From the NCBI GenBank assembly GCA_049968235.1, contig JBMFRC010000036.1, positions 1 to 13,639 on the forward strand: 13,639 nt of DNA. The letters run 5' to 3'. Position numbers and translations under genes: made by a program. The DNA is from Candidatus Hydrogenedens sp. GTDB taxonomy: Bacteria > Hydrogenedentota > Hydrogenedentia > Hydrogenedentales > Hydrogenedentaceae. Positions 500 through 13,053 of the stretch are shown piece by piece (the stretch's first letter is position 1; each line of letters starts with the position of its first letter). The notes beneath the pieces were generated by a model. It was not told the DNA's origin. It saw only the letters and a list, made by a program, of their open reading frames with translations, and did not search any database.

Positions 500-1828
500 A
501 TGGAAAAGAAGCAAGTTTTTGCCATAATGTTATTATCTTTTTTATTACTTGGAATATTAATTGATGCAGTGGCACAGGACGCAATTCGTCTTCAATCTGT
601 AAGGGGAATAGATAGAAGAATTTTAATTGCAATCCCTCCTTTTTGCCCGGATACTCCTGATTTGAGTGGTGTTGCTGTAGAGTTAACCGAAGTAATGGCT
701 TATGATTTGGAATTTTCAGGACTATTTATTTTATTACCACGTGAACGCTATCCTATTGGATTTATTGCTCTGGATAAAGATGTAGCGAGTATTAACTTTG
801 AAGCATGGCGTGCTACAAAGGCAGAGTTTTTATTATATGGGCTAATAAAGAAAGAAGATGGGAAATATGTTTGTCAGTTCCGATTGTTGGACCTTCTTTC
901 GAGTAATCAAGTGGTTGGGAAAGAAGTGCGTGTAGATATTTCGAATTCTCGTTTAGCCTCACATAGATTCTCTGAGGAAGTAATCGCTTTTATTGATGGA
1001 ATTCCTGGAGTAGGAACAAGTCAGATTTGTTTTACAGGTATTGTGGGGAAGAATAAAGAGTTATTTATTGCAGATTATGATGGTGCGAATGTGAAACAAA
1101 TTACCGAACATGGCTCTATTTCAATAAAACCCAAAGTTTCTCCTGATGGGATGAAGATAGCATACCTGTCCTATAAGGACCGTTATTCCTTTTTATATGT
1201 TTTTGACCGTTTAACAGGTAAGGTAACACCATTATCAAAAGAAGTGGGATTAAATTCCGCTCCCGCATGGTTTCCTGATGGAAATCGGTTGGCGATGACT
1301 TTAAGTAAAGATGCTAATATGGAAATCTATATCCGTAATATGGACGGAAGCAATCCTGTTCGTATCACAAGGAATAAAGACGCAGATACATCTCCATGTA
1401 TATCTCCAGATGGTTCAAGAATAGCATTTGTAAGTGACCGGGGGGGCAATCCACAAGTTTATATTATGAGTATTGATGGTAACGATGCTCGTCGTGTTTC
1501 ATATCAAGGGGGAAATTCGTATGACCCGGCATGGTCCCCAGATGGGAAAATGATTGCCTATGTTGTTGAACAAAGGGGAGAAGGTTTTGAAATCTATGTA
1601 ATGGACGCAGACGGCTCTAATTCGCGAAGATTAACAAACTCTTATGGTAATAATGAATCTCCTACATGGTCGCCCGATTCTCGACATGTGATGTTTTGTT
1701 CTACGAGAAATGGACGATGGGAATTATGGACTGTAAATGTAAAAACGGGAGAAGAACGACGTGTCCCTAATTTAAAGATAGAATCTCAGGGACCTTCCTG
1801 GGGACCCCGTATGAAGAGCGATAAATAG
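500..1828 (+). CDS. tolB: Tol-Pal system periplasmic beta-propeller protein TolB
   Basis: 442 aa with an N-terminal signal peptide (MEKKQVFAIMLLSFLLLGILIDAVAQ). It has a TolB N-terminal domain followed by repeated PD40/WD40-like beta-propeller blades (SPDG..IAY/IAF, WSPDG, WFPDG motifs recur 5-6 times). There is a strong RBS (AAAGGAG) 8 nt upstream of the ATG. Confidence 0.9.
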   Translation: MEKKQVFAIMLLSFLLLGILIDAVAQDAIRLQSVRGIDRRILIAIPPFCPDTPDLSGVAVELTEVMAYDLEFSGLFILLPRERYPIGFIALDKDVASINFEAWRATKAEFLLYGLIKKEDGKYVCQFRLLDLLSSNQVVGKEVRVDISNSRLASHRFSEEVIAFIDGIPGVGTSQICFTGIVGKNKELFIADYDGANVKQITEHGSISIKPKVSPDGMKIAYLSYKDRYSFLYVFDRLTGKVTPLSKEVGLNSAPAWFPDGNRLAMTLSKDANMEIYIRNMDGSNPVRITRNKDADTSPCISPDGSRIAFVSDRGGNPQVYIMSIDGNDARRVSYQGGNSYDPAWSPDGKMIAYVVEQRGEGFEIYVMDADGSNSRRLTNSYGNNESPTWSPDSRHVMFCSTRNGRWELWTVNVKTGEERRVPNLKIESQGPSWGPRMKSDK

Positions 1829-1867: not shown

Positions 1868-2335
1868 ATGCTACGGCATAGTGGAGAAAAATTAATTGTT
1901 CAAAATCGCCGTGCTCATTTTGATTATGAAATATTTGAGCGATATGAAGCAGGGATTTCATTAAAAGGGACAGAGGTAAAGTCACTGCGAACTTCAGGTA
2001 GTATGTCCATACAGGATGCCTATGTGGATTATGAGGGAGGAGAACTATTCCTTGTGAATGCATATATTCGTCCTTATGAGCAGGGGAATATCTTGAATCA
2101 TGACCCCCATCGTGAAAGAAAATTATTACTTCATAAACGCGAGATAATCCGATTGGGAAAAAGGATTGAAGAAAAGGGTTTAACTTTAATTCCGTTACGG
2201 GTTTATTTTAAGAATGGTCTGGTAAAAGTGGAAATAGGATTGGGTCGTGGTAAGAAGGTTATAGATAAACGAGAAGATATAAAAAAGAAGGAAACACAGA
2301 GAGAAATTGAACGGGTTGTAAAAAGATTCCGATGA
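1868..2335 (+). CDS. smpB: SsrA-binding protein SmpB (trans-translation)
   Basis: 155 aa. It contains NRRAHFDYEIFERYEAGISLKGTEVKSLR (E. coli SmpB has [28 protein letters not shown]), DPHRERKLLL (E. coli DPTRTRKLLL) and GKKVIDKREDIKKKE (E. coli GKKQHDKRSDIKERE), plus the basic C-terminal tail typical of SmpB. Confidence 0.93.
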   Translation: MLRHSGEKLIVQNRRAHFDYEIFERYEAGISLKGTEVKSLRTSGSMSIQDAYVDYEGGELFLVNAYIRPYEQGNILNHDPHRERKLLLHKREIIRLGKRIEEKGLTLIPLRVYFKNGLVKVEIGLGRGKKVIDKREDIKKKETQREIERVVKRFR

Positions 2336-2373: not shown

Positions 2374-2742
2374 ATGGAGATGAATGAACAAAAAAGAAGA
2401 AATCCGATAAAGTGGGAACCTAAAGATTTCTGGCTACAGTATATCGGCTCTATGACACCTTCGGCATTTTTAAAAATTTCTGGTGTTTATAGTCCTTATA
2501 GAGCAGTAGAAAAACATTTACAAAAATTATCTACCTTTTACGGTATTGTTCGACGAAATACATGGAAGGAAACATTTGGAGAACCTTTACAATTTAGTTA
2601 CGAAGAGGTATATTGGGGGATTATTGCCTATTTGAAAGAAACCGAAAACGAATGGAAACAGGAATGGAGAGAATTCTGGCTTGCTAAGGATGATGAGGAC
2701 CCATTAGACGTAAACGATATTTCTAAACCATCAGAGAATTAA
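2374..2742 (+). CDS. Hypothetical protein (122 aa, Trp-rich, acidic C-terminus)
   Basis: Clean ORF with a GGAGA RBS 6 nt upstream of the ATG. It has short gaps to both neighbours (38 nt and 20 nt), so it is probably co-transcribed with smpB and the downstream NYN-like gene. I recognise no known family; the sequence is W-rich (WEPKDFW, EWKQEWREFW). Confidence 0.55.
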   Translation: MEMNEQKRRNPIKWEPKDFWLQYIGSMTPSAFLKISGVYSPYRAVEKHLQKLSTFYGIVRRNTWKETFGEPLQFSYEEVYWGIIAYLKETENEWKQEWREFWLAKDDEDPLDVNDISKPSEN

Positions 2743-2762
2743 TAAATATTGCAAGTTTAAAA

Positions 2763-3485
2763 ATGAGCCGTCAACGACATCGGGGAAAGAACCCGGAAGA
2801 TGAAAAACTGTTTACCACAGAACAGATGGTACTGTTAAGAAAAGCAGTTGAAGACCTTTCGTATCTTTATACACGAGGTTATTCAGAAAAAATAGCGTTG
2901 AAAATGGTCGGTGACCATTATCAATTAAAAAGCCGACAAAGACTTGTAATTCAAAGGGCAGTATGTTCAGATACCTCTTTGGAAATTCGCAAAAAGAATG
3001 AGGTTGGTGAGTATATAAAAAAAGGAGAGCAATTTTTCATTGATGGATACAATATTTTAATTACTGTGGAAAGTCTATTATCTTGCGGTGTATTAATTTG
3101 TGGGAGAGATGGTTGTATTCGTGATATAGCCAGTTTGCATGGTACCTATCATAAAGTTGAAGAGACTGTTCCTGCAATTTATTGGATAGGTGAACACTTA
3201 TCTAATCTTGAACCTTCGGAGGTAATCTGGTTTATGGACAAACCTATATCTAATAGTAAAAGGTTAGCTCAATTGATTGAAATGATTTCTAAAGAACGAG
3301 AATGGAACTGGAGAGTAGAAGTCGTTAAGAATCCGGATTCTGAAATTGTGAAAAGATGTGGTATTGCTATCTCTTCAGATAGTTGGATTCTTGACAGAGT
3401 TCCCCACTGGTTAAATTTTGTCTCGCGGAATATAAAAGATTCATGGGAGAAATTGAAAATACTCGATTTTTCAGGTAGTGTCTAA
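2763..3485 (+). CDS. Two-domain protein with a C-terminal YacP/Rae1-like NYN (PIN-like) ribonuclease domain; architecture resembles DUF434 + DUF5616 proteins
   Basis: 240 aa. The C-terminal half begins FFIDGYNILITVESLL. (h)DGYN(V/I) is the hallmark first beta-strand motif of NYN/YacP nucleases, and the domain ends ..CGIAISSDSWILD, matching the C-terminal (V/I)x(T/S)SD motif of Rae1/YacP. Conserved acidic residues sit between them (GRDGCIRD, FMDKP). The N-terminal ~90 aa contains an RGY motif, as I recall for DUF434. This assignment is from memory and not verified by a search. Confidence 0.6.
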   Translation: MSRQRHRGKNPEDEKLFTTEQMVLLRKAVEDLSYLYTRGYSEKIALKMVGDHYQLKSRQRLVIQRAVCSDTSLEIRKKNEVGEYIKKGEQFFIDGYNILITVESLLSCGVLICGRDGCIRDIASLHGTYHKVEETVPAIYWIGEHLSNLEPSEVIWFMDKPISNSKRLAQLIEMISKEREWNWRVEVVKNPDSEIVKRCGIAISSDSWILDRVPHWLNFVSRNIKDSWEKLKILDFSGSV

Positions 3486-3499
3486 ATAAGGATGGATTA

Positions 3500-6154
3500 T
3501 TATAAATAGTTTTTTAAATTTTTAATTAGTGTATTAATATTATAGGGTTTTGTTAAGAAACCTTGAATAGGAAAGTCTATGTCATTTTCGCTGAAGGTAT
3601 GTTGTAAAAATCCTGTGCTGAGGAAAATAGGGAGATTGGGAAATTCGGAACGAATGATTCGTGCAACATCTGTCCCATCTAAATGAGGCATTGTTATATC
3701 TAAAATAATAGCAGAAAATTTATTTTTATGTTCGTTAAAGAGTTGAAGAGCCTCCCGACCATCCTTGGCTGTAATTACTGTAAACCCGAGTTTTTCAAGC
3801 ATCTTTGTGGTAACCTGAAGGACAACAGGTTCATCATCCGCAAAAAGAATGAGCCCCTTTCCTTTCCATGAGGATAAATTGTTGATTTCACGGGGCTGTT
3901 CTTCTATTCCATGGATTGCGGGGAAGAATAATTTAAATGTGGTTCCTTTTCCTACTTCACTGTAAACTTTTATTGTCCCACTATGTGCCCGGATAATGCC
4001 CATGATAGTGGCTAATCCCAAACCTCTACCGGTATCTTTTGTAGTGAAAAACGGGTCAAATATTTTTGACATCGTTTCAGGGGGCATACCACAGCCATTG
4101 TCAGACACTTCCATGTAAATATATTTTTTCTTCTCTATTCCTTCCTGAAACCATGTTGTCCGTATATAACTCTCTGTAAAATCTACTACCCCTGTTTTTA
4201 TACGAATAACACCACTTCGATTGCCTATGGCATCAGAGGCGTTGATAACAAGATTTACAAGCACAGAACGGAGTTGCCCTATTTCTCCGTTGATAAGTGG
4301 AAGTTCAGGGTCAAACTGGAAATCTAATAATATTTTTTTAGAGATACTAACCTTTAATAAATGCTCTGTTTCTTTAATAATGTGATTTAAATTACAAGGT
4401 TGATAAGGTTGTTGCTTTTTTCCGGCAAAAGTGAGTAACTGCCGGCATAATTCTCCGGCATCCTTAATGGTTTCTTCTATATTCTGCAGATAATTTGCTA
4501 TAGCAGATGGTTTATTTATTTCCGCTCTGGCTAATTCCGCATGTCCCATAATTGCCATAAGGTAATTATTAAAATCGTGGGCTACTGAACTTGAAAGTAC
4601 CCCTAAACTTTCTAATTTTTGTATATGTTGAATTTGTTTCTGGAATTGTTTTTTCTCTTCTTGAACTTTTTTTATTTCTGAAATATCTCGAAACAGAATA
4701 AGAATTAAGGGAATTCTATTTGAGAAACGAACAAAACGGTGGATGACCCGTAAAGTTAATGGATTTCCTTTCTTGTTTTTCTCTATGATTTCAACTTCTA
4801 TTAAGGGGTGTGTATCTTCGCTTTGAGAAATTTTTTTATTTAATTCGGGAGCGAAGTTTTCTATTGGTTTGAAGAGGACTTCATCAATGTCCCATCCTAA
4901 TATTTCTTCACTGGTTTTATTCCAGAATTCAATGTTACCTTCTTCATTAATTGCGATAATTCCAATGGGGGCTGAATCAATGAGAGTTTTTAACAAAGAC
5001 ATAGTTTCGTTAAGGGTATTAATCAATGATTTTAATTCGGTAATATCTTCATACATTCCTAACACACCATAAGGGACACCCCCAGGACCCATAAGGGGTA
5101 TTTTGCTTGTCCTTAGCCATAGTTGTTTACCATCAGGGGTCGTTTGTGGCTCTTCATAAAATATTTTAGGTTTTCCCGAAGTAATCACTTCACGGTCATC
5201 CTTACGATAAATCTCTGCTTCAGATTTCCATGGCAGTTCGAAATCTGTAGTCCCGATAACTTCCTCAGGACTATTTTTGCCAGCATCTTTTGCAAAAGCA
5301 AGATTACAACCTAAATAATGAAGATTTTTGTCTTTCCAGAATACACGGACAGGTAGTAAATCAAGGACAATCCGCAGAAACTTCATTGCTTTTTCTTTTT
5401 CCTCGTCTTTTGCTTCTCTTTCATCTAAGTTCTCGATATGAACGAAGAAACCATAAAGGGAATCCGAATTATTTTCTGGAATTGGAATTAGATGAACAAG
5501 AGCCCTAAAAGTAGAATGGTCTTTTTTTATGTAAATTTTCTCGAATACAAAAATTTTATTAGTGGATGAAAACGGTTGCTTTAATACTTCATTGAAAAGA
5601 GTTAATTCCTGGGCAAGATTTTCATATATGGTTAAGTCCTGCCATGTGAGTTTTAGTAATTCATCTCTGGTAAAGCCCAAAAGGGAGCATAAAGCAGGGT
5701 TTGCTTCAACCCAATAGCCTGCTATATTAGTAATACCTATCGGGATTTTGATTTGCTGTATGAAATTGTATATGAGAGGATGTTGATAAAAGGGGCTTTT
5801 CGGTTCAGGGAGTATATGGGTGTAGTCATACAAAGTAAGAATATCGTTTTGAGGATTTAATTCAGATTTTTCGATGGTTAGATGACACCAGAAATATTTG
5901 TTTTTTCTGTTATTGAGCCAGAGTTTAAAATGGTTATCCGATGTAATAATATTATTTCTGTAATGTTGTAGAAATTTTCTGATAGATTCCTTTTGAGGTT
6001 CAAAAATCCAATCTATAAAGTAAGTATTTTCAAATTCTTTAAAGTCTAAATCTAGGAAATCAAGTTCGTCGGATTGAACCCGTTCTATTTTTCCTTCCTG
6101 GTCTAATAATATTGTAAAGACTTTTGGTAAAAACGATATTTGCATGAAAACCAC
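3500..6154 (-). CDS. Hybrid sensor histidine kinase: cytoplasmic, multiple PAS/PAC domains, HisKA + HATPase_c, C-terminal CheY-like receiver
   Basis: 884 aa with no obvious TM segments. There are repeated PAS-like blocks. The H-box is [21 protein letters not shown]. The ATP-binding G-boxes are DNGCGMPPE...FDPFFTTK...[11 protein letters not shown]...[12 protein letters not shown] receiver domain follows ([11 protein letters not shown]...[14 protein letters not shown]...IFLSTGF, with the phospho-acceptor Asp inside ILDITMP). The track start is a GTG at 6154; an in-frame ATG at 6145 (MQISF...) is an alternative start. Confidence 0.9.
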
Positions 6155-6243: not shown

Positions 6244-7545
6244 TTAACTGTTTACATAGGTATCAACTGTTTGTCGGAGGGTTTTCATTATCCAGTTACG
6301 TTTGGTATCATCTGTTTCCAATAATGTTATTCGGAATCCCGGATAATGGGATTGGAAACCACTAAGGGGAACGACTACGATGCCTGTTGAACCCATAAGA
6401 TAGTAAACAAATCGTTTATCAGGAGGTGCGTTTACAACTATACTCTCGATATATGCTTTAATTTTTTCATTTTCTATGGGTAGTGTTTGATGGTTATTCA
6501 GGACATTCTCTTTGAACATAATTGTTGCATAAAATGCCCCACCTGGTCGGTTCAAAACAATATAAGGACAACCGCGAAAGGTGTCCATTAGTTCATCCGC
6601 TCTACTGCTAAATATGGATGCCCGCTGGCGGAGATGTTGAGGGTATCTGGAATCACCCATAATTTTAGGAATGACCATTTGAGGGAATGTTGTTGAACAG
6701 ACTTCTAATCGTTTCGCAGCAAGTAAACTATCTATATATTCAGAAAAATTGGGGTCCTTTTTACGATTTAAAACTTCAATCCATCCACAACGTGCACCCG
6801 GCCATGGGAATTCTTTACTTATTCCTCGCATGGCAATTCCTGGAACATCTTCAATCCACTGACTTAAATGAATTTTGGGATAGCCTGGAAAAACAATATG
6901 GCTGTAAATTTCATCGGTAATAATAAATAAATCATATTCTCTGGCAATTTTCAAGATTTCTTCAAGTACACTACGAGGATAGACAGCCCCTGTAGGATTG
7001 TCCGGGGATAGAAGTAAAATACCCGCAATAGAATCATTATATTTTACTTTGTTTCGTAAATCATATAAATCCGGCATCCAATTATTATAGGGGTCTAATT
7101 TATAAGTTAGGTGATTATAGCCGGAATGTGCCGCTTCTGCGGATGAATGTGTACTATAGGCAGGAGAAGGTCCTAAAACCCGAGCCTCTCTTTTTAAGAA
7201 ACCATAAACTTTGGCTACTGCATCACCAATTCCATTAAAAAAGATAATATCATCCGGAGTAATTTTTGTGCTACCACTTCGCTGGTTTACCATTTCTGCA
7301 AGAAACATTCTTGTTTCAGGAACACCTGCGGTATCGCAATAACCATAGGTTCGAGAATCATCAATGGTTTCATGAATTATCTCCTTAATCCACGGTGCAA
7401 TTTCCTCCCCTTTTTCAATAGGGTCACCAATATTTTCCCATGTGATAGGTTGTCCCAATTCTTTTACTTTATTCGCAATAGCAACGATTTCTCGGATTTC
7501 ATAACTTAAATTACGAGAACCTTCATGAACAATGTTTCTACGCAT
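6244..7545 (-). CDS. PLP-dependent class I/II aminotransferase, alanine-aminotransferase (AlaA)-like
   Basis: 433 aa. The motif LLLSPDNPTGAVY matches the AlaA family INPNNPTGAVY. The PLP-lysine motif is SKEFPWPGARCGW (SK..G.R.G). The N-terminal region NLSYEIREIV resembles the AlaA YDIRGPV region. An RBS-like GTGAGG lies upstream of the ATG. Confidence 0.85.
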   Translation of the reverse strand: MRRNIVHEGSRNLSYEIREIVAIANKVKELGQPITWENIGDPIEKGEEIAPWIKEIIHETIDDSRTYGYCDTAGVPETRMFLAEMVNQRSGSTKITPDDIIFFNGIGDAVAKVYGFLKREARVLGPSPAYSTHSSAEAAHSGYNHLTYKLDPYNNWMPDLYDLRNKVKYNDSIAGILLLSPDNPTGAVYPRSVLEEILKIAREYDLFIITDEIYSHIVFPGYPKIHLSQWIEDVPGIAMRGISKEFPWPGARCGWIEVLNRKKDPNFSEYIDSLLAAKRLEVCSTTFPQMVIPKIMGDSRYPQHLRQRASIFSSRADELMDTFRGCPYIVLNRPGGAFYATIMFKENVLNNHQTLPIENEKIKAYIESIVVNAPPDKRFVYYLMGSTGIVVVPLSGFQSHYPGFRITLLETDDTKRNWIMKTLRQTVDTYVNS

Positions 7546-7651
7546 ATAAGCCTCACTTTAGATAAAAATAATAATTGAATAGATTTATAAGATTTCTATT
7601 GGTAAGAAATGATTAAAGAGTATAATAGTTTACAACTTTGAGGGGTAAAAA

Positions 7652-8998
7652 TTAAAATACACATGCAAGAAATTTATCTTCTATAATTTGAGCAGGATGA
7701 TTATCCATAAAAAAATTATTACCTACACCGGCTTTGTTTATTATGAATTCGTCCCTTTGAGTTCCTTCCATATCAAAAGAACGATATATCAGCCGATTAC
7801 TTATACCTTTTTCTATAGTAATAATTTGGTAAGTGGGAATTTTCTCAAATGCTATTTCAATAATTTCTGTTTTCTCTTGTTGCTCGTAGGATTTTGTTCC
7901 TGAAAAGGATATTACATAATAAGTGCCCTCTGTGGGAGAAACTTTTTGGTTATTTTTTAATGGATATGTTCGCCAATAAGAATGGTCATGCCCTTGAAAT
8001 ACTATATCTACATGATATTGGTCTATTAATGGAAGCCATGCGTCCCTTAAATGTTTGTTATCTCTTCTTGGTGCGGAACTGTAGAAAGGTTGATGAAATA
8101 ACAAGAATTTCCAGAGAGACGAAGACCCTGAAAGTTGATGTTCCAACCAGGGGACTTGCTGTTCTGGATTATGGTTGGCGTTTAAGATTATAAACTGTGC
8201 ATTTAGGTATTTGACTGAATAACAAAATTCGCTGGTGATGTTTGCGGGTCCGTTTGTGGGCAGGACAAAGAAATCGAGATACATCTTAGGTAAAAGAGGA
8301 TTTGATTTATATTCATGGTTACCAATGGTCGGAACTATAGGATATTGGGCAAAGATATTATCTGCATAATGGAAAAAGGCATCCCAATCATCCCTTTCAT
8401 TCCCTCGATTTACAAGGTCGCCTGCCATTAAAATAAAGGAACAATCCGGACATTTTTCAATAGATTTTTTTAACAATTTTCCCCATTCTTCCAGACCATT
8501 TTGGGCATCACCTAAATAAATAAAAGAAAAAGTTTTTGCCTGAGTAGGTTCTGTTTTAAAGGTGTACCAATCACTCCATATTTCTAAATTGGGATTTCCT
8601 ACACGATATTCGTAATTTGTATTGGGTTCTAATGAATTGAGTGTAACAAACCAACGATAAATTTCCGGATTATTCTTTAAAGAAGGGTCGATAATAGAAA
8701 TGAACTTTGCAGATGTTCTTTTCGTCGATTCCTTATTTTGTTCTGTTTTCTTGTGCCATTCCACAATGCCTTCTTTGACTTCCGGCGATGTACTCCACTG
8801 AATTGTCATAGAAGTTGATGGAGTTTCTGTAAGGGTGAGTGTGATTTGTGCTGGAACTTGAGTAATAGGGAAGGGTGTCTCTCTATCTGGAGGGGTTTTT
8901 ACATCAGCAAATATGGGAGCGATAGCAGTTAGAAGAGTTATAAAGAAAATGAGGGTATAAACAAAAATACTAACATTTAAATTTTTGACTCTTATCAT
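7652..8998 (-). CDS. Secreted purple-acid-phosphatase-like calcineurin-type metallophosphoesterase with an N-terminal FN3-like domain
   Basis: 448 aa with a signal peptide/TM segment (IFVYTLIFFITLLTAIAPIFA). The ~100-aa N-terminal region resembles the PAP N-terminal domain (QWSTSPEVKEGIVEW...NTNYEYRVG). The metallophosphatase motifs are YLGDAQNG, AGDLVNRG, IGNHEY, LLFHQPFY and FQGHDHSYWR (the GHxHxYER type of purple acid phosphatases). AAAGGA RBS. Confidence 0.85.
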   Translation of the reverse strand: MIRVKNLNVSIFVYTLIFFITLLTAIAPIFADVKTPPDRETPFPITQVPAQITLTLTETPSTSMTIQWSTSPEVKEGIVEWHKKTEQNKESTKRTSAKFISIIDPSLKNNPEIYRWFVTLNSLEPNTNYEYRVGNPNLEIWSDWYTFKTEPTQAKTFSFIYLGDAQNGLEEWGKLLKKSIEKCPDCSFILMAGDLVNRGNERDDWDAFFHYADNIFAQYPIVPTIGNHEYKSNPLLPKMYLDFFVLPTNGPANITSEFCYSVKYLNAQFIILNANHNPEQQVPWLEHQLSGSSSLWKFLLFHQPFYSSAPRRDNKHLRDAWLPLIDQYHVDIVFQGHDHSYWRTYPLKNNQKVSPTEGTYYVISFSGTKSYEQQEKTEIIEIAFEKIPTYQIITIEKGISNRLIYRSFDMEGTQRDEFIINKAGVGNNFFMDNHPAQIIEDKFLACVF

Positions 8999-9069
8999 GT
9001 TTAATCCTTTTCAGTGAAGGTGAGAAGATAAATAAGAAATAACTTATCTATTAGATAAAGAATAATTTA

Positions 9070-9083
9070 AAAAAGTTTCAAAA
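9070..9083. repeat. Exact 14-nt direct repeat AAAAAGTTTCAAAA, copy 1 (copy 2 at 9457-9470). Together the copies bracket the G-rich island.
   Basis: Both copies were read directly from the sequence. Copy 2 is part of a tandem CAAAAAGTTT-CAAAAGTTT (9456-9474). A fourth CAAAAAGTTTA occurs at 9629-9639. Confidence 0.5.
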
Positions 9084-9208
9084 ATTAATATGCTAACTGA
9101 AACTGTACATGAAAAGAATGGGGAAAGTAATTGTTAAAGGGAAATTTTAAATTATTGTAACTTTTTTTTAATATTGATTGTTGTATTTTTTTTCCCTATT
9201 TAAAAAAG

Positions 9209-9401
9209 ATGCGCACGGGCATTACTATCGGAACAGGCATAGGAGGGGGGGATAGGAGCCCGTGCGCTGGGGAGGGTACTGTGCAGGGTAGTGAGGGCTG
9301 TGTGTGTGGTAATAAGTTAATTGTACCTGTGGTCTGGGTTGGGAGGAAGGCCAGATTTAGCAGGGCAACGTTTGTTAAACTTACCTCACTTTCTTCACAG
9401 G
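9209..9401 (+). ncRNA. Candidate structured RNA or regulatory element: a G-rich island inside a ~1-kb AT-rich intergenic region. Class unknown and strand uncertain.
   Basis: There is an abrupt composition shift to G-rich sequence. A 10-bp perfect inverted repeat GCGCACGGGC (9211-9220) / GCCCGTGCGC (9258-9267) encloses a 37-nt loop. G-tracts lie at 9269-9297, a G7 run at 9245-9251 and (TG)5 at 9299-9308. Secondary pairings are CCTGTG 9326-9331 with CACAGG 9396-9401 and TCTGG 9333-9337 with CCAGA 9351-9355. The overlapping 69-codon ORF has no RBS and a codon usage unlike the rest of the window. Confidence 0.3.
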
Positions 9402-9456
9402 AAAATATTCAAATTTAATAGAGCAATTATCTATTTTATTTATACTATAAACGCCC

Positions 9457-9470
9457 AAAAAGTTTCAAAA
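9457..9470. repeat. Exact 14-nt direct repeat AAAAAGTTTCAAAA, copy 2. It is embedded in a tandem CAAAA(A)GTTT x2.
   Basis: Read directly from the sequence. See the copy at 9070-9083. Confidence 0.5.
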
Positions 9471-9982
9471 GTTTACAATTCTTTTGTGTAAAAATCTATA
9501 AAAATTAAATATCATTAAATTTTATATAACTTTCACTCAATATTATAGCACAAAAAATTCATAAAATCAAATTTTTTAACAAAAATTTACATATCAATTA
9601 TAATAAAATAATTTGGTCTTTTATTCCTCAAAAAGTTTATATTTATTTAAAAATTATTGGAAATAGATTCACAAAATTTGTTTTTGACTATCCACTCGTT
9701 GAATAAAATCCAAAAGATTTTTTAGTTGTTTTGAAAGGATTTAAGAATAAATTATACAACAAAAAATAATGATAATTTACGATGAATGTTCGAAAGACTA
9801 TTTCAAAGATAGGAATTTAAATAATTTATTTTAATTTTGTAGGTGATATGCTATTACTACCCTTTAATATTAAAGTATAAGGGATAATGGATATAATAAA
9901 AATAATCGACATTATAGTGGCTATATTTTTTATAATCAATTTTATCTCAGTGATTTATTTCAAAAACAGGTAAGTTTTTAGT

Positions 9983-9988
9983 TATAAT
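9983..9988 (+). promoter_or_regulatory. Candidate sigma-70-type -10 hexamer TATAAT, ~20 nt upstream of the fliM start region
   Basis: Perfect TATAAT at 9983-9988. Only a weak -35 is found (TTCAAA/TCAAAA about 17-19 nt upstream). The AAAGGA RBS at 9994-9999 and the fliM ATG at 10009 would give a very short leader. This is a sequence-only call and is weak because AT-rich DNA makes chance TATAAT common. Confidence 0.2.
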
Positions 9989-10008
9989 CAAATAAAAGGA
10001 TTGTAGCG

Positions 10009-11013
10009 ATGGCAGATATTTTGAGCCAGGAAGAAATAGATTTATTATTAGGTTCTGTTACAACGGGAACTGTTGATACAGTCAAAAAAGAGGAACAAGA
10101 GGGCGAGCAAAAAGTTAGTGCTTATGATTTTCGCAGACCGGAACGTATTTCTAAAGAGCAGTTAAAGGGTTTACAAAGTATTTTTGAGTCCTTTGCCCGT
10201 GAACTTACAATAGTGCTCCCTCCATATTTTCGGACTATAGTCCGTGTTGACCTTATATCTATTGACCAATTAACTTATGATGAATTCATTCTTGCAATTT
10301 CCAGACCTACCTGTCTTGTCGTAGTTAATATGTCTCCATTAGATGGAGCGGGAATTTTAGAATTAAGTCCAACTGCTATTTTCCCAATAATTGACCGTGT
10401 ATTAGGGGGTAAAGGAAAGATATTACCTGAATTGCGAGAATTAACAGAAATAGAAGAGAGAATTATCGGGCGTATCGTAGAAATGATGTTGAGTTGTCTC
10501 AAAAGGGCATGGGAACAGGTTATCGAATTGAACTCTCGCGTTGAATCAATAGAAAGTGACCCGTTGATTGTTCAAATTGTTGCGGGTAGTGAGATGACTA
10601 TTCTCGTCAGTTATGAAATTCATGTTGGCGAAAACACAGGGACTATTAATTTTTGTATTCCTTTGATGGTAATGAATCCTCTTTTAGACCAGATATCCAA
10701 AATGGCTCATTATGCCCATCGAGTTAGTCCTGAAGAGGCAGAGTTAACACGTATTATGTTATTAAAACTTTTATTGAATGCCCCGATTAAATTGGATACA
10801 ATTTTAGGACGAGTAAATGTTGAGATGAGTGATTTAGTCGATTTGAAAGAGGGGGATGTTTTAGTGTTGAATAGAAAAATTGAAGAGCCTATTGTTGTTG
10901 AGATTGAAGGTTTACCAAAACTAAAAGGAACCATTGGTAGAAGAGGAGAAGAAATGGCATTGCGTATCTGTTCCATAATTCGGGATGAAAAAAATCCTGA
11001 AAATTATCTGTAA
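10009..11013 (+). CDS. fliM: Flagellar motor switch protein FliM
   Basis: 334 aa. The N-terminal CheY-P-binding peptide is MADILSQEEIDLLLG (LSQxEIDxLL). It is followed by YDFRRPERISKEQLKGLQSIFESFAR, which is FliM family. It has a CheC-like middle domain and a C-terminal FliN-like region. AAAGGA RBS 9 nt upstream. Confidence 0.93.
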   Translation: MADILSQEEIDLLLGSVTTGTVDTVKKEEQEGEQKVSAYDFRRPERISKEQLKGLQSIFESFARELTIVLPPYFRTIVRVDLISIDQLTYDEFILAISRPTCLVVVNMSPLDGAGILELSPTAIFPIIDRVLGGKGKILPELRELTEIEERIIGRIVEMMLSCLKRAWEQVIELNSRVESIESDPLIVQIVAGSEMTILVSYEIHVGENTGTINFCIPLMVMNPLLDQISKMAHYAHRVSPEEAELTRIMLLKLLLNAPIKLDTILGRVNVEMSDLVDLKEGDVLVLNRKIEEPIVVEIEGLPKLKGTIGRRGEEMALRICSIIRDEKNPENYL

Positions 11014-11026
11014 AGGAAGATGTTCG

Positions 11027-11965
11027 ATGAGATTAAACGAAATAATTGATTTGTTTTTCAAAGGTCTGGATGATGTTTTGTTATCTTTAGGAATAGGGGG
11101 AAATAAATATAAGATTCATGCAACAAAAATTATTGGGATAGAGGATATTCAATCTACCTTAAATGAGCAAAGTATTGTATTATGGGGAAAAGTTGAAAAA
11201 AATCAGGGTATATTGTTGTTATGTATGAACAGTGATGATGTCCGTGCATTAGTAGGGGCTGTTGAAGGAACAGTTCCTGAAGAAATAAATGAGACTGTTA
11301 TAAGCACATTGAAGGATTTGGGAGATGCATTTTTAGGGGGTGCCTTGAGTTCTCTTGCACAGTCTGCTAAAAAAGGTGTAGTACAGTTTGAACTTACAGG
11401 AATCCGGAAAGGGGAAGAAATATTTGACGCATCGTTTTATTCCCAAATTCAAGAGCCGGTCATATGTGGCTCCGTTGCGGTAGAAGGTAATATAAACTTT
11501 TCGTTCCCATGGATAGTAGTATTAGATAATCTTCTGAAAACATGGTTTCCCATAGATGAGGAAAAAGCAGGTGTAGAAGAGACTATGTTGACACAGGAAG
11601 AAATAGAATCGTTTATTAACAATGAAGTAATAAAACCAGAAACAAAGAAAGAAGAACAAACTACAGGAGCAAAACCCGTGAGTAAAAAATCAATAGATTC
11701 GGGTTACCGTAATTTGGATGTTATCTTGGATATTCAGGTGGAAGCCACAGCCCGATTGGGGAGTGTGCAAATGCCTCTAGCAACAGTGTTAAGTTTAGGG
11801 CCCGGTTCTGTAATCAATGTCGGACATGAGGTTGACAATCCCATTGAATTGTATGTGAATAATAAATTAATTGCCAAAGGCGATGTGGTTATCGTAGATG
11901 AAAAATTTGGTATTCGAATAACAGAAATTGTAAGTCCCCAGGAACGGATAGAGAGTTTACAGTGA
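11027..11965 (+). CDS. fliN: Flagellar motor switch protein FliN/FliY-like: an extended N-terminal domain plus a C-terminal FliN (SpoA) domain
   Basis: The C-terminal ~80 aa (LDVILDIQVEATARLGSVQMPLATVLSLGPGSVINVGHEVDNPIELYVNNKLIAKGDVVIVDEKFGIRITEIV) is the FliN/SpoA surface-presentation domain. I prefer the ATG at 11027 because AAGGAAG lies 7 nt upstream and it is just after the fliM stop. The longest ORF starts at 10985 and overlaps fliM by 29 nt, but it has no RBS. The N-terminal ~220 aa may have a degenerate CheC-like fold (EEIN is present but the full D/S-x3-E-x2-N-x22-P motif is not). Confidence 0.8.
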   Translation: MRLNEIIDLFFKGLDDVLLSLGIGGNKYKIHATKIIGIEDIQSTLNEQSIVLWGKVEKNQGILLLCMNSDDVRALVGAVEGTVPEEINETVISTLKDLGDAFLGGALSSLAQSAKKGVVQFELTGIRKGEEIFDASFYSQIQEPVICGSVAVEGNINFSFPWIVVLDNLLKTWFPIDEEKAGVEETMLTQEEIESFINNEVIKPETKKEEQTTGAKPVSKKSIDSGYRNLDVILDIQVEATARLGSVQMPLATVLSLGPGSVINVGHEVDNPIELYVNNKLIAKGDVVIVDEKFGIRITEIVSPQERIESLQ

Positions 11966-12720
11966 GTATCAGCGAAGAAAAAATATTATGGCAAAGATAT
12001 AAAGAAGAAAATGACGAATCTGCACGTGAGGAATTAATATACAAATATATGCCTATCGTTCGATTCATTGCAGGTAGAATTGCCATTCATGTTCCTCCCT
12101 CCATAGAGTTAGACGATTTGATTGGCTGGGGAATTGTAGGGTTATTGGATGCGATGGAACGGTATGATTACAAGCAGGATACACGGTTTAATACTTATGC
12201 ATCTATCCGTATACGCGGAACTATTTTAGACCAGATACGCTCTCTGGATTGGGCTCCCCGTTCTTTGAGAAGTATGGCTCGGAGAGTAGGTGCTGTTTCG
12301 GAGAAGTTGAGGCATCAGAAAGGGGGAGAACCTACAATTCATGATATTGCAGAGGCTTTAGGTGTAAGTTCGGAGCATATAGAAGAAACGGTGGCTAATT
12401 TACAAACGGTTCAGATGCTTTCTTTAGACCATTTTGCTATTTCGGAGGATGATGGCGCCGGGCGGACAAGGGAAATTAATACTGACGCATTCTATCCTTC
12501 TCCAGAAGAGGTGGCTCGTCAAAAAGAATTGCAAGAATTGCTTGTAGAAGCAATTATGAAACTGCCAGAACAACAGCAAAAAGTTCTTCATCTATACTAT
12601 TATGAAGAGTTAACATTAAAGGAAATCGGTGAAGTTCTTCAAGTTTCCGAATCACGGGTTTGTCAGATTCATGCCAGTGCTATTAAAACATTACGCGAAT
12701 TGGTAAAGTCGTGGGTATGA
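11962..12720 (+). CDS. fliA: Flagellar sigma factor sigma-28 (FliA/WhiG/SigD family)
   Basis: 252 aa. Region 2 is YMPIVRFIAGRI...ERYDYKQDTRFNTYASIRIRGTILDQIRSLDWAPRS (FliA-type LDWAPRS). The region 4 HTH is LTLKEIGEVLQVSESRVCQIHASAIKTLR. The GTG start at 11962 overlaps the fliN stop (GTGA), indicating translational coupling. Confidence 0.92.
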   Translation: MSISEEKILWQRYKEENDESAREELIYKYMPIVRFIAGRIAIHVPPSIELDDLIGWGIVGLLDAMERYDYKQDTRFNTYASIRIRGTILDQIRSLDWAPRSLRSMARRVGAVSEKLRHQKGGEPTIHDIAEALGVSSEHIEETVANLQTVQMLSLDHFAISEDDGAGRTREINTDAFYPSPEEVARQKELQELLVEAIMKLPEQQQKVLHLYYYEELTLKEIGEVLQVSESRVCQIHASAIKTLRELVKSWV

Positions 12721-12723
12721 TTT

Positions 12724-13053
12724 ATGCCGATGCCTATTGACCCAAATACTGAAATCTTGCGGGTAAATCTCGCGGAACGAATTCAACAAATTTCGGACAG
12801 GGCTTCTTTGTTAGGACAGGTTCGTCAATCTTTGAATGAGGAACAGCAACGGGTTGTTGATGAAACACAGGTAAAAGAAATGCAACAAAAGAGTGAACAG
12901 GTTGAGACCGAACTTAAAAGAAAGAATCCTTTTTTAGGGCGTAGGCGGAAGCCACAAAAGGAAGAATATAAAGAGGTATCTTCGGATGAAGAAATTAAAG
13001 GAACTTATGAAGATACAAAAGATGATGGTTCTCATCTGGATTTGCAAGCATAA
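12724..13053 (+). CDS. Hypothetical highly charged (K/E/Q-rich), probably disordered 109-aa protein, translationally coupled to fliA
   Basis: The ATG lies 3 nt after the fliA stop (TGATTTATG). The composition is low-complexity and charged (EEQQRVVDETQVKEMQQKSEQVETELKRK...) with no TM segment. I recognise no family. Its size and position are reminiscent of FlgM-type anti-sigma factors, but I see no FlgM sequence similarity. Confidence 0.5.
   Translation: MPMPIDPNTEILRVNLAERIQQISDRASLLGQVRQSLNEEQQRVVDETQVKEMQQKSEQVETELKRKNPFLGRRRKPQKEEYKEVSSDEEIKGTYEDTKDDGSHLDLQA

What the first reader, a model, noticed from the sequence alone, without database searches (positions are those of the whole stretch)
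2374..3485. smpB is followed by a two-gene module ending in a Rae1/YacP-like NYN ribonuclease
Directly downstream of smpB (gaps of 38 and 20 nt, so probably co-transcribed) lie an unclassifiable W-rich 122-aa protein and a 240-aa protein. The C-terminal domain of the 240-aa protein begins FFIDGYNIL and ends IAISSDSWILD, which are the first-strand and last-strand signature motifs of YacP/Rae1-type NYN (PIN-like) endoribonucleases. Rae1 is known to cleave mRNA in the ribosomal A-site. Such cleavage would create non-stop mRNAs, which are the substrate of the SmpB/tmRNA ribosome-rescue pathway encoded by the adjacent gene. Genomic coupling of an A-site-type RNase with smpB, plus an unknown partner protein, could represent an uncharacterized translation-surveillance or toxin-like module. 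The N-terminal domain of the 240-aa protein (RGY motif) looks like DUF434, which is itself uncharacterized.
Basis: partly seen in the sequence, partly recalled or inferred. Interest (0 to 1): 0.6.

Follow-up and report, generated by a model that had tools for sequence, protein, structure and literature searches.

The report
Known-family PIN-like nuclease beside smpB
The gene after smpB is an ordinary member of an already classified but never experimentally studied family of predicted nucleases (DUF434 + DUF5616, COG2454). It sits next to smpB in only one narrow bacterial lineage, so nothing found here shows that it works with the ribosome-rescue system.

Summary

**Not a YacP/Rae1 member.**
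- Pfam NYN_YacP gives no hit.
- Profile-profile alignment covers only the 10-residue IDGYN motif.
- The Rae1 crystal structure is missing from the listed fold matches.

**smpB adjacency.** It occurs only in a Hydrogenedens-level clade: 5 of 80 genome loci, where the whole tolB-smpB-122aa-DUF434 block is inherited together. The other 75 loci lack it.

**The 122-aa protein.** It belongs to an unannotated orphan family of about 100 clusters. It pairs with DUF434 in 8 of 80 loci. Elsewhere it sits beside a heptosyltransferase gene with no DUF434 gene nearby.

**Other context.** The only widespread RNA-related neighbour is a tRNase Z homolog in Planctomycetota (38 of 80 loci). No mobility or defence signal was found.

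**Verdict.** This is a new member of a known kind, probably a housekeeping RNA-processing nuclease. The ribosome-rescue reading stays untested and unlikely.

The parts
500..1828 (+). tolB-like gene. It is upstream on the same strand (39-nt gap to smpB) and is part of the block that is syntenic in the Hydrogenedens clade.
   Evidence: Pfam TolB_N + PD40. It is co-conserved with smpB, the 122-aa gene and the DUF434 gene in L001-L005, L081-L083 and L096-L102.
1868..2335 (+). smpB (SsrA-binding protein), full length
   Evidence: Pfam SmpB E 3.9e-59 over 1-142 of 143. NCBIfam equivalogs score above their cut-offs.
2374..2742 (+). 122-aa orphan protein. It has a conserved, mostly helical core (about residues 14-100) and a short acidic tail (103-122, net charge -5).
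   Evidence: - No Pfam, NCBIfam, PADLOC, PHROGs or PDB relative.
- About 100 representative clusters in an exhaustive HMMER search.
- Found directly upstream of DUF434 in 8 of 80 loci.
2763..3485 (+). 240-aa DUF434 + DUF5616 protein (COG2454 family), a predicted metal-dependent PIN-like nuclease
   Evidence: - Pfam matches to both domains.
- At least 164 homologs; all 120 listed carry the same two domains.
- AlphaFold pLDDT 91.8.
2835..2996 (+). DUF434 domain (residues 25-78). It lies in the helical, basic N-terminal module (residues 1-84, pI 9.5), which is the presumed substrate-binding part.
   Evidence: Pfam E 4e-20. Helices at 19-37, 42-52, 57-66 and 70-79. Invariant H6, R7, Y40, R58, R60 and R76; nearly invariant R38. 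pI.
3021..3422 (+). DUF5616 domain (residues 87-220), the PIN-like catalytic core. D94, D159, D192 and D206 sit at or just after the ends of successive beta-strands. Further invariant residues are E103, D116, D121 and E134.
   Evidence: Pfam E 6.9e-48. Invariant columns mapped onto the predicted strands 90-94, 153-159, 183-188 and 201-203.
3500..6154 (-). Convergent hybrid PAS histidine kinase/receiver gene, 14 nt after the DUF434 stop codon. It closes the same-strand cluster.
   Evidence: Pfam PAS, HisKA, HATPase_c and Response_reg. ORF coordinates.

Best explanation
The 240-aa gene encodes an ordinary member of the COG2454 family. It has a basic helical DUF434 module fused to a DUF5616 PIN-like catalytic domain.

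**How it most likely works**
- It is most likely a Mg2+/Mn2+-dependent nuclease. Its metal site would be built from Asp residues at the ends of successive beta-strands (D94, D159, D192, D206), helped by E103, D116, D121 and E134.
- The basic N-terminal module would hold a structured RNA substrate.
- Its most probable role is housekeeping processing of structured RNA, such as tRNA-like or rRNA precursors. A role in ribosome-dependent mRNA cleavage is much less likely.

**The genes around it**
- In the Hydrogenedens lineage the gene lies last in a same-strand cluster, tolB-smpB-122aa-DUF434, and is probably co-transcribed with it.
- The smpB adjacency is a lineage-specific arrangement inherited as a block. 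It is not evidence of a shared pathway.
- The 122-aa protein is an orphan small protein with an acidic tail. It accompanies the nuclease in part of the phylum Hydrogenedentota and may modulate it.

**Shown:** family membership, fold class, residue conservation and synteny pattern.
**Inferred:** nuclease activity, RNA substrate and co-transcription.
For: - **Family.** Pfam DUF434 + DUF5616 score above their cut-offs. All 120 listed homologs share this architecture. The family is published as COG2454 in the NYN group, with a proposed role in tRNA/rRNA maturation (PMC5499597).
- **Active site.** Eight acidic residues are invariant in 40 sequences of 42-87% identity.
- **smpB synteny.** smpB is present only in L001-L005 of 80 genome loci, together with tolB (plus the convergent kinase gene in L001-L003). 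The same block recurs in L081-L083 and L096-L102.
- **RNA-processing hint.** A full-length short-form tRNase Z homolog (PDB 7xgt E 2.6e-38; 1ww1 E 4e-12) lies divergently upstream in 38 of 80 loci. These span Planctomycetia and Phycisphaerae, and the link holds even where another gene is inserted between the two.
- **Housekeeping character.** GC content matches the surroundings. PADLOC and PHROGs give no hit. The gene is absent from phages and viral contigs and is found on only 5 of 72,556 plasmids, all 147-640 kb. In annotated isolates it stands alone among unrelated genes.
Against: - No member of the family has been tested biochemically, so the substrate is inferred.
- tRNA genes lie within 5 kb in only 2 of 80 bacterial loci, so the archaeal proximity to tRNA operons does not carry over.
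- The tRNase Z link is largely confined to one phylum and could be retained synteny.
- Across the 15 Hydrogenedens-clade loci the smpB-122aa-DUF434 order is kept while DUF434 identity falls to 60% and the outer flanks are rearranged (one search compared with the window). This leaves some room for a real functional link to smpB.
Confidence: 0.6

Rival explanations
1. **Rae1/SmrB analogue.** The nuclease, perhaps with the 122-aa protein, binds stalled or collided ribosomes. It cuts the mRNA and so creates truncated messages that tmRNA-SmpB rescues. The smpB adjacency would then reflect a true functional module.
For: - The genes run in tandem with 38- and 20-nt gaps and no terminator-like signal.
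- The domain is a PIN/NYN-group nuclease with a DGYN motif like YacP.
- The block is kept throughout the Hydrogenedens clade.
- Rae1-dependent trans-translation is now documented in B. subtilis. Those authors note that phyla lacking Rae1, SmrB and HrpA may use another nuclease (PMC13622287).
Against: - smpB is absent within 5 kb in 75 of 80 DUF434 loci, including seven other Hydrogenedentota.
- Pfam NYN_YacP gives no hit, and profile alignment covers only 10 columns.
- Rae1 structures 5MQ8/5MQ9 are not among the listed fold matches.
- The family is abundant in Archaea, which have no tmRNA/SmpB (PMC5499597).
- No ssrA gene lies near any locus.
Confidence: 0.08
2. **Toxin-antitoxin-like or defence pair.** The PIN-like nuclease is a toxin. 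The upstream 122-aa protein neutralises it, for example with its acidic tail mimicking nucleic acid on the basic DUF434 module.
For: - A small upstream gene is followed by a PIN-like nuclease gene across a 20-nt gap.
- The pair is kept with unrelated flanks in L007, L008 and L014.
- Tails in the 122-aa family are uniformly acidic (net -1 to -26), and the DUF434 module is basic (pI 9.5).
Against: - 72 of 80 DUF434 genes have no such partner.
- Twelve of 19 metagenome loci with the 122-aa family lack DUF434. In six checked by Pfam or sequence identity the downstream gene is a GT9 heptosyltransferase, and two more have an unchecked ORF of similar size.
- PADLOC and PHROGs give no hit.
- The gene is not on phages or viral contigs and is rare on plasmids.
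- Composition is native.
- Synteny is stable at phylum level in Planctomycetota.
Confidence: 0.05
3. **Structure-specific DNA nuclease.** The protein is a FEN-like 5'-flap or 5'-3' exonuclease acting in DNA repair or replication rather than on RNA.
Against: - Pfam finds no 5'-3' exonuclease, XPG or H3TH DNA-binding domain; only DUF434 and DUF5616 match.
- The published classification puts the family in the NYN group, not the FEN group.
- The recurrent neighbour is a tRNase Z homolog, and no DNA-repair neighbours recur.
Confidence: 0.15

Closest known systems
COG2454 family (Pfam DUF434 PF04256 + DUF5616 PF18481), classified in the NYN group of PIN-like nucleases by Matelska et al. 2017 (PMC5499597)
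   Same: - Same two-domain architecture; both Pfam models score above their cut-offs.
- Conserved Asp-rich predicted active site.
- A long helix after the first strand, followed by a short second element.
- Mostly solitary genes in bacteria.
   Different: Nothing in the protein itself differs. Only the gene context is unusual: it follows smpB and an orphan 122-aa gene in the Hydrogenedens clade. That context was not described in the paper, which reports tRNA and ribosomal operon contexts in Archaea.
Rae1/YacP (Pfam NYN_YacP PF05991; PDB 5MQ8/5MQ9), the ribosome-associated mRNA endonuclease of B. subtilis
   Same: - [IV]DGYN motif at the end of the first strand.
- In a low-confidence extended alignment the acidic motifs fall in the same order: IDGYN/VDGYN, FMDKP/VFDAH, ISSDS/ATSDY.
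- Same fold class, PIN-like NYN group, according to the literature.
   Different: - No PF05991 hit.
- hhalign probability is only 9-39% over 10 columns.
- An extra N-terminal DUF434 domain and a conserved beta-hairpin insert (GRDGCIRD, 111-121) are present.
- Rae1's long basic C-terminal helices are missing.
- The family occurs in Archaea, which lack trans-translation.
FEN-like 5' nucleases of the PIN superfamily (Exo1 5uzv, GEN1 6grb, XPG 6tus, ExoIX 3zd8, T5 exonuclease 1ut5, FEN1, Xrn1)
   Different: - Sequence identity is 6-15%.
- No H3TH/H2TH DNA-binding module and no Pfam 5'-nuclease domains.
- The protein is much smaller.
- Substrate is unknown.
SmrB (E. coli) and the Rae1-dependent CART pathway: nucleases that cut mRNA at collided ribosomes and hand them to tmRNA-SmpB
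   Same: Only the idea is shared: a nuclease encoded next to smpB could supply substrates for trans-translation (PMC13622287).
   Different: - No homology to SmrB (SMR domain) was seen.
- There is no evidence of ribosome association.
- The adjacency is confined to one clade.
VapBC-type PIN toxin-antitoxin pairs
   Same: A small upstream gene is followed by a PIN-superfamily nuclease gene across a short gap.
   Different: - The pairing is not obligate in either direction.
- There is no defence or mobile-element signal.

Membership tests
COG2454 (DUF434 + DUF5616) | N-terminal DUF434 (PF04256) match above the Pfam gathering score | tested here: met
   71.7 bits against a cut-off of 27, residues 25-78
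COG2454 (DUF434 + DUF5616) | C-terminal DUF5616 (PF18481) match above the Pfam gathering score | tested here: met
   162.9 bits against a cut-off of 27.6, residues 87-220 covering 5-138 of the 140-position model
COG2454 (DUF434 + DUF5616) | [quoted passage not shown] 2017) | tested here: met
   D94, D116, D121, D159, D192 and D206 are invariant and D211 is at least 90% conserved in 40 homologs
PIN-like superfamily | Alpha/beta core with a parallel sheet, similar to solved PIN-like nucleases, with acidic residues at the C-terminal ends of the strands | tested here: met
NYN_YacP / Rae1 | Match to Pfam PF05991 | tested here: not met
   No hit at E<=1. The control YacP sequence scores E 2.5e-60.
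NYN_YacP / Rae1 | Domain-wide profile-profile homology to YacP proteins | tested here: not met
   hhalign probability is 8.9% (single sequence), 30% (24-sequence profile) and 39% (C-terminal domain only). Each aligns only 10 columns, and the global alignment fails. Caveat: the YacP profile is shallow (67-99% identity).
NYN_YacP / Rae1 | GYN motif directly after the first catalytic Asp | tested here: met
   D94-G95-Y96-N97. D94 and N97 are invariant and G95 is at least 90% conserved.
NYN_YacP / Rae1 | Two long C-terminal helices rich in basic residues after the nuclease core | tested here: not met
   After strand 201-203 the model has only short helices (207-210, 219-223, 225-230). By my count from the translation, residues 207-240 hold 5 K/R against 4 D/E, so the segment is near neutral.
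NYN_YacP / Rae1 | Closest structural similarity to the Rae1 crystal structure (5MQ8/5MQ9) | tested here: inconclusive
NYN_YacP / Rae1 | Translation-dependent mRNA cleavage at stalled ribosomes | not testable with these tools
   This needs in vivo or in vitro assays.
FEN-like 5' nucleases | H3TH/H2TH DNA-binding module and 5'-nuclease N/I domains | tested here: not met
   Pfam reports only DUF434 and DUF5616 at E<=1
Type II toxin-antitoxin (VapBC-like) or defence system | Obligate pairing of toxin with a cognate upstream partner, and a defence or mobile-element association | tested here: not met
   The partner is present in 8 of 80 DUF434 loci. The partner family occurs without DUF434 in 12 of 19 loci. 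PADLOC and PHROGs give no hit. Phages and viral contigs give none, and only 5 large plasmids carry the gene.
smpB-linked functional module | Adjacency to smpB conserved across independent lineages | tested here: not met
   5 of 80 genome loci, all in one clade with tolB upstream also syntenic. Neither the 12 divergent loci of the 122-aa family nor the annotated isolates show it.

The most novel reading that the evidence does not exclude
In Hydrogenedens and its relatives, the DUF434/DUF5616 nuclease, possibly guided or restrained by the orphan 122-aa protein, has been recruited as the mRNA-cutting enzyme that feeds stalled or collided ribosomes to tmRNA-SmpB. It would then be a functional analogue of Rae1 or SmrB in a phylum where this study did not test for those enzymes. 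The 2026 CART preprint explicitly predicts that such unknown nucleases exist.
Probability: 0.07. Interest if true: 0.75.

Novelty: new member of a known kind. Interest (0 to 1): 0.25.

Why it matters
If the smpB link were functional, it would identify a third, unrelated nuclease class that couples ribosome stalling to trans-translation. It would also give a first function to a widespread family (COG2454) that nobody has characterised.

The evidence here points the other way. The protein is a routine family member, and its smpB neighbourhood arose once in a narrow lineage.

Three results are useful for later work:
- The family's PIN-like assignment is confirmed with a confident structure model.
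- A recurring tRNase Z neighbour in Planctomycetota fits the published tRNA-maturation hypothesis.
- A previously unannotated small-protein family of about 100 clusters is now defined.

Tried and rejected
- **PDB by sequence, 240-aa protein.** Single-sequence and profile searches found nothing meaningful.
- **Foldseek against the PDB, full-length model.** Only generic Rossmann-like noise appeared.
- **YacP kinship.** Pfam, hhalign against one sequence, hhalign against a profile, and relaxed and global modes gave only the 10-column DGYN motif. YacP membership was rejected.
- **PDB and Pfam with the 122-aa family.** The PDB profile search and the per-member Pfam scan both found nothing.
- **First metagenome scan.** The 40-sequence alignment of the 122-aa family had no conserved stretch to search with. 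A 12-sequence subset worked.
- **tRNA or tmRNA proximity in bacteria.** Two of 80 loci have a tRNA gene and none has a tmRNA gene, so this was rejected as a general feature.
- **Rfam over the window.** Nothing was found.
- **Promoter and terminator scan.** Counts did not exceed shuffled controls, so it says nothing about operon structure.
- **A 'DUF434' literature hit on gene essentiality.** It was actually DUF4340 and is irrelevant.
- **Mobility and defence checks.** All were negative.
Full report
**1.

The window carries smpB (1868-2335), a 122-aa ORF (2374-2742) and a 240-aa ORF (2763-3485). All three are on the + strand, with gaps of 38 and 20 nt.
- SmpB is full length and scores above the curated cut-offs.
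- The 240-aa protein contains the quoted motifs RGY (38-40), FFIDGYNIL (91-99) and IAISSDSWILD (201-211).
- An exact copy of the 240-aa protein is recorded from a Candidatus Hydrogenedens sp. MAG on a contig of 13,639 bases, the same length as the window.
- The cluster is preceded by a TonB_2-type fragment and tolB. It is closed by a convergent PAS histidine kinase gene 14 nt after the stop codon.
- GC content across the three genes (0.35-0.40) matches the rest of the window.
- A consensus scan finds no promoter or terminator signal above chance between the genes. Co-transcription is therefore plausible but rests only on spacing.

**2. What the 240-aa protein is**

Pfam assigns DUF434 (residues 25-78, E 4e-20) and DUF5616 (87-220, E 6.9e-48). 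It reports no NYN_YacP, NYN, PIN or 5'-nuclease family at E<=1. NCBIfam, PADLOC and PHROGs give nothing.

The large protein search returns at least 164 relatives. All 120 listed have the same two domains and are annotated only as 'DUF434 domain-containing protein'.

This architecture is the COG2454 family. Matelska et al. 2017 (PMC5499597) already added it to the PIN-like superfamily. They placed it in the NYN group, 'more related to NYN_YacP', with at least five conserved Asp. They described it as mostly monocistronic in bacteria and as lying next to tRNA or ribosomal operons in Archaea, and proposed a role in tRNA/rRNA maturation. No experimental work on the family turned up.

**3. Fold and active site**
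- An AlphaFold model built from a 40-sequence alignment is confident (pLDDT 91.8, pTM 0.89). It shows a four-helix N-terminal module and an alpha/beta C-terminal domain.
- In 40 homologs of 42-87% identity, D94, E103, D116, D121, E134, D159, D192 and D206 are invariant and D211 is nearly so.
- D94, D159, D192 and D206 sit at or just after the ends of the predicted strands 90-94, 153-159, 183-188 and 201-203. That is the usual PIN arrangement for metal ligands. This mapping is my inference from the secondary structure; no superposition was possible.
- The N-terminal 84 residues are basic (pI 9.5), with invariant H6, R7, R58, R60 and R76. This fits a nucleic-acid-binding role.

**4. It is not a YacP/Rae1 family member**
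It matches Pfam NYN_YacP at E 2.5e-60 and is 99% identical to an annotated Rae1/YacP protein.
- hhalign of the DUF434/DUF5616 profile against this sequence aligns only QFFIDGYNIL with ILLVDGYNMI. The same holds against a 24-sequence YacP profile and with the C-terminal domain alone. Probabilities are 9%, 30% and 39%.
- A relaxed alignment puts the acidic motifs in the same order, but with no statistical support. The global alignment fails.
- The protein also lacks Rae1's long basic C-terminal helices. It carries an extra DUF434 domain and a conserved GRDGCIRD hairpin.
- In short, it resembles Rae1 in fold class and in one motif, but it is not a YacP family member.

**5. smpB adjacency is a single, narrow event**

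A scan of one genome per species found 576 confirmed relatives, and the best 80 loci were fetched.
- smpB lies within 5 kb only in L001-L005. These are the five closest relatives (60-87% identity), and tolB upstream is also syntenic in all five, as is the convergent kinase gene downstream in L001-L003.
- The same block recurs in L081-L083 and L096-L102.
- Seven other Hydrogenedentota loci lack smpB. So do all Planctomycetota, Bacteroidota and Acidobacteriota loci and the annotated isolates.
- No ssrA gene is near any locus.
- The family is also common in Archaea, which have no trans-translation.
- The adjacency is therefore not unique to this genome, but it is unique to one genus- or family-level clade. 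It carries little weight as evidence of function.

**6. The 122-aa protein**
- It has no relative in Pfam, NCBIfam, PADLOC, PHROGs or the PDB.
- The word-indexed search found only 10 Hydrogenedens-type clusters.
- An exhaustive profile search found about 100 representative clusters. They share an N-terminal core of about 85 residues with invariant W20, G57, W64, F68 and W94. Variable Ala/Pro-rich acidic tails follow, with net charge -1 to -26.
- The gene lies directly upstream of DUF434 in 8 of 80 loci: the five Hydrogenedens-type loci, two other Hydrogenedentota and one MAG labelled Nitrospirales. In the last three the flanks are unrelated and smpB is absent.
- In 12 of 19 metagenome loci the family occurs with no DUF434 or smpB gene within 4 kb. 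In six of these loci the next gene is a GT9 heptosyltransferase (four by Pfam, two by identical matches). Two more have an unchecked same-strand ORF of similar size.
- The pairing is real in part of one phylum, but it is not obligate in either direction.

**7. Other context**
- In 38 of 80 loci a roughly 284-aa metallo-beta-lactamase-fold gene lies divergently upstream of the DUF434 gene. Thirty-six of these carry a planctomycete label, spanning Planctomycetia and Phycisphaerae. The link sometimes holds with one gene inserted between the two.
- This neighbour matches RNase Z models, though below the curated cut-offs. It aligns over its full length to the short-form tRNase Z structures 7xgt (E 2.6e-38) and 1ww1 (E 4e-12).
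- It is the only widespread RNA-related neighbour. It fits the published tRNA-maturation idea, but it may partly reflect retained synteny.
- tRNA genes themselves are near only 2 of 80 loci.
- The DUF434 gene is absent from phages and viral contigs. It occurs on five large plasmids, four of them non-mobilizable.

**8. Comparison with current Rae1 knowledge**
- Rae1 is now reported to cut 12 nt upstream of the A-site codon, at the tail of the stalled ribosome, not in the A-site (PMC12407103).
- Rae1 is also reported to generate substrates for trans-translation at collided ribosomes (PMC13622287).
The evidence that this particular protein plays that role is limited to one lineage-specific adjacency.

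**9. Verdict**
- Best explanation (confidence about 0.6): a routine COG2454 PIN-like, metal-dependent nuclease, probably acting in housekeeping processing of structured RNA. It lies at the end of a lineage-specific tolB-smpB-122aa-DUF434 cluster.
- Rivals: an FEN-like DNA nuclease (0.15), a Rae1/SmrB analogue (0.08) and a toxin-antitoxin-like pair (0.05).
- Novelty: a new member of a known kind.
- Interest: 0.25. The fold assignment is already published and the comparative test does not support the proposed module.
- What remains open is the orphan 122-aa family and the untested family function.

Noticed in passing
L010:1705-2553 (-), and the equivalent position in 37 other loci (for example L016:3923-4810, L021:4025-4873, L029:4017-4886): In Planctomycetota (both Planctomycetia and Phycisphaerae) the DUF434/DUF5616 gene is divergently paired with a full-length short-form tRNase Z homolog (PDB 7xgt E 2.6e-38; 1ww1 E 4e-12). 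Its scores on NCBIfam RNase Z models are far below the cut-offs. The pair is found in 38 of 80 loci, sometimes with one gene inserted between the two.
   Followed up: yes
window 2374-2742; L084-L095: The 122-aa protein defines an unannotated family of about 100 representative clusters. It has an 85-residue Trp-rich core and acidic Ala/Pro-rich tails of very variable length. It has no Pfam or PDB relative and no significant fold match. In six high-GC metagenome loci the next gene is a GT9 heptosyltransferase (four by Pfam, two by identical matches); two more loci have an unchecked ORF of similar size.
   Followed up: partly
window 9205-9405 (inside the ORF-poor stretch 8999-10008): A G-rich island of about 200 nt sits in a very AT-rich intergenic region of about 1 kb upstream of fliM. 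It folds better than shuffled controls on both strands (z -2.98 on +, -4.64 on -) and matches no Rfam family. It may be an undescribed structured RNA. The 69-aa ORF at 9209-9418 lies in this G-rich stretch and may be spurious (not tested).
   Followed up: partly
window 9501-10000: GC content falls to 0.19, against about 0.36 elsewhere, just upstream of the flagellar switch genes. No ORF of 60 aa or more lies there.
   Followed up: no
window 10009-12720: A flagellar cluster holds fliM (FliM + FliMN_C), a 326-aa FliN/FliY-like protein (FliMN_C) whose ORF overlaps fliM by 29 nt, and a sigma-70-family factor with regions 2, 3 and 4 that is probably FliA-type. A 109-aa ORF with no Pfam match follows (12724-13053).
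   Followed up: partly
L081-L083 compared with window 6244-8998: The aminotransferase and purple-acid-phosphatase genes lie downstream of the kinase gene on the minus strand in the window. In a related Hydrogenedens genome they lie upstream of the TonB_2/tolB genes on the plus strand. The outer flanks are therefore rearranged while tolB-smpB-122aa-DUF434-kinase stays intact. A Cas6 gene lies about 4 kb downstream in L081 and L083.
   Followed up: no
window 2763-2801 (residues 1-13 of the 240-aa protein): The extreme N-terminus (consensus MPxxQxHRGxHPxD) holds invariant H6, R7 and D13 and nearly invariant G8. It is predicted to be unstructured (mean pLDDT 67 for residues 1-10) and lies before the Pfam DUF434 match. 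Its role is unknown.
   Followed up: no
L104:4250-4717 (Treponema saccharophilum pTS2): The annotated CDS is called 'DUF5616 domain-containing protein' and covers only the C-terminal part. The tblastn match, however, spans the whole 240-aa query from locus position 4001. This suggests a mis-called start codon or a disrupted gene in that record.
   Followed up: no
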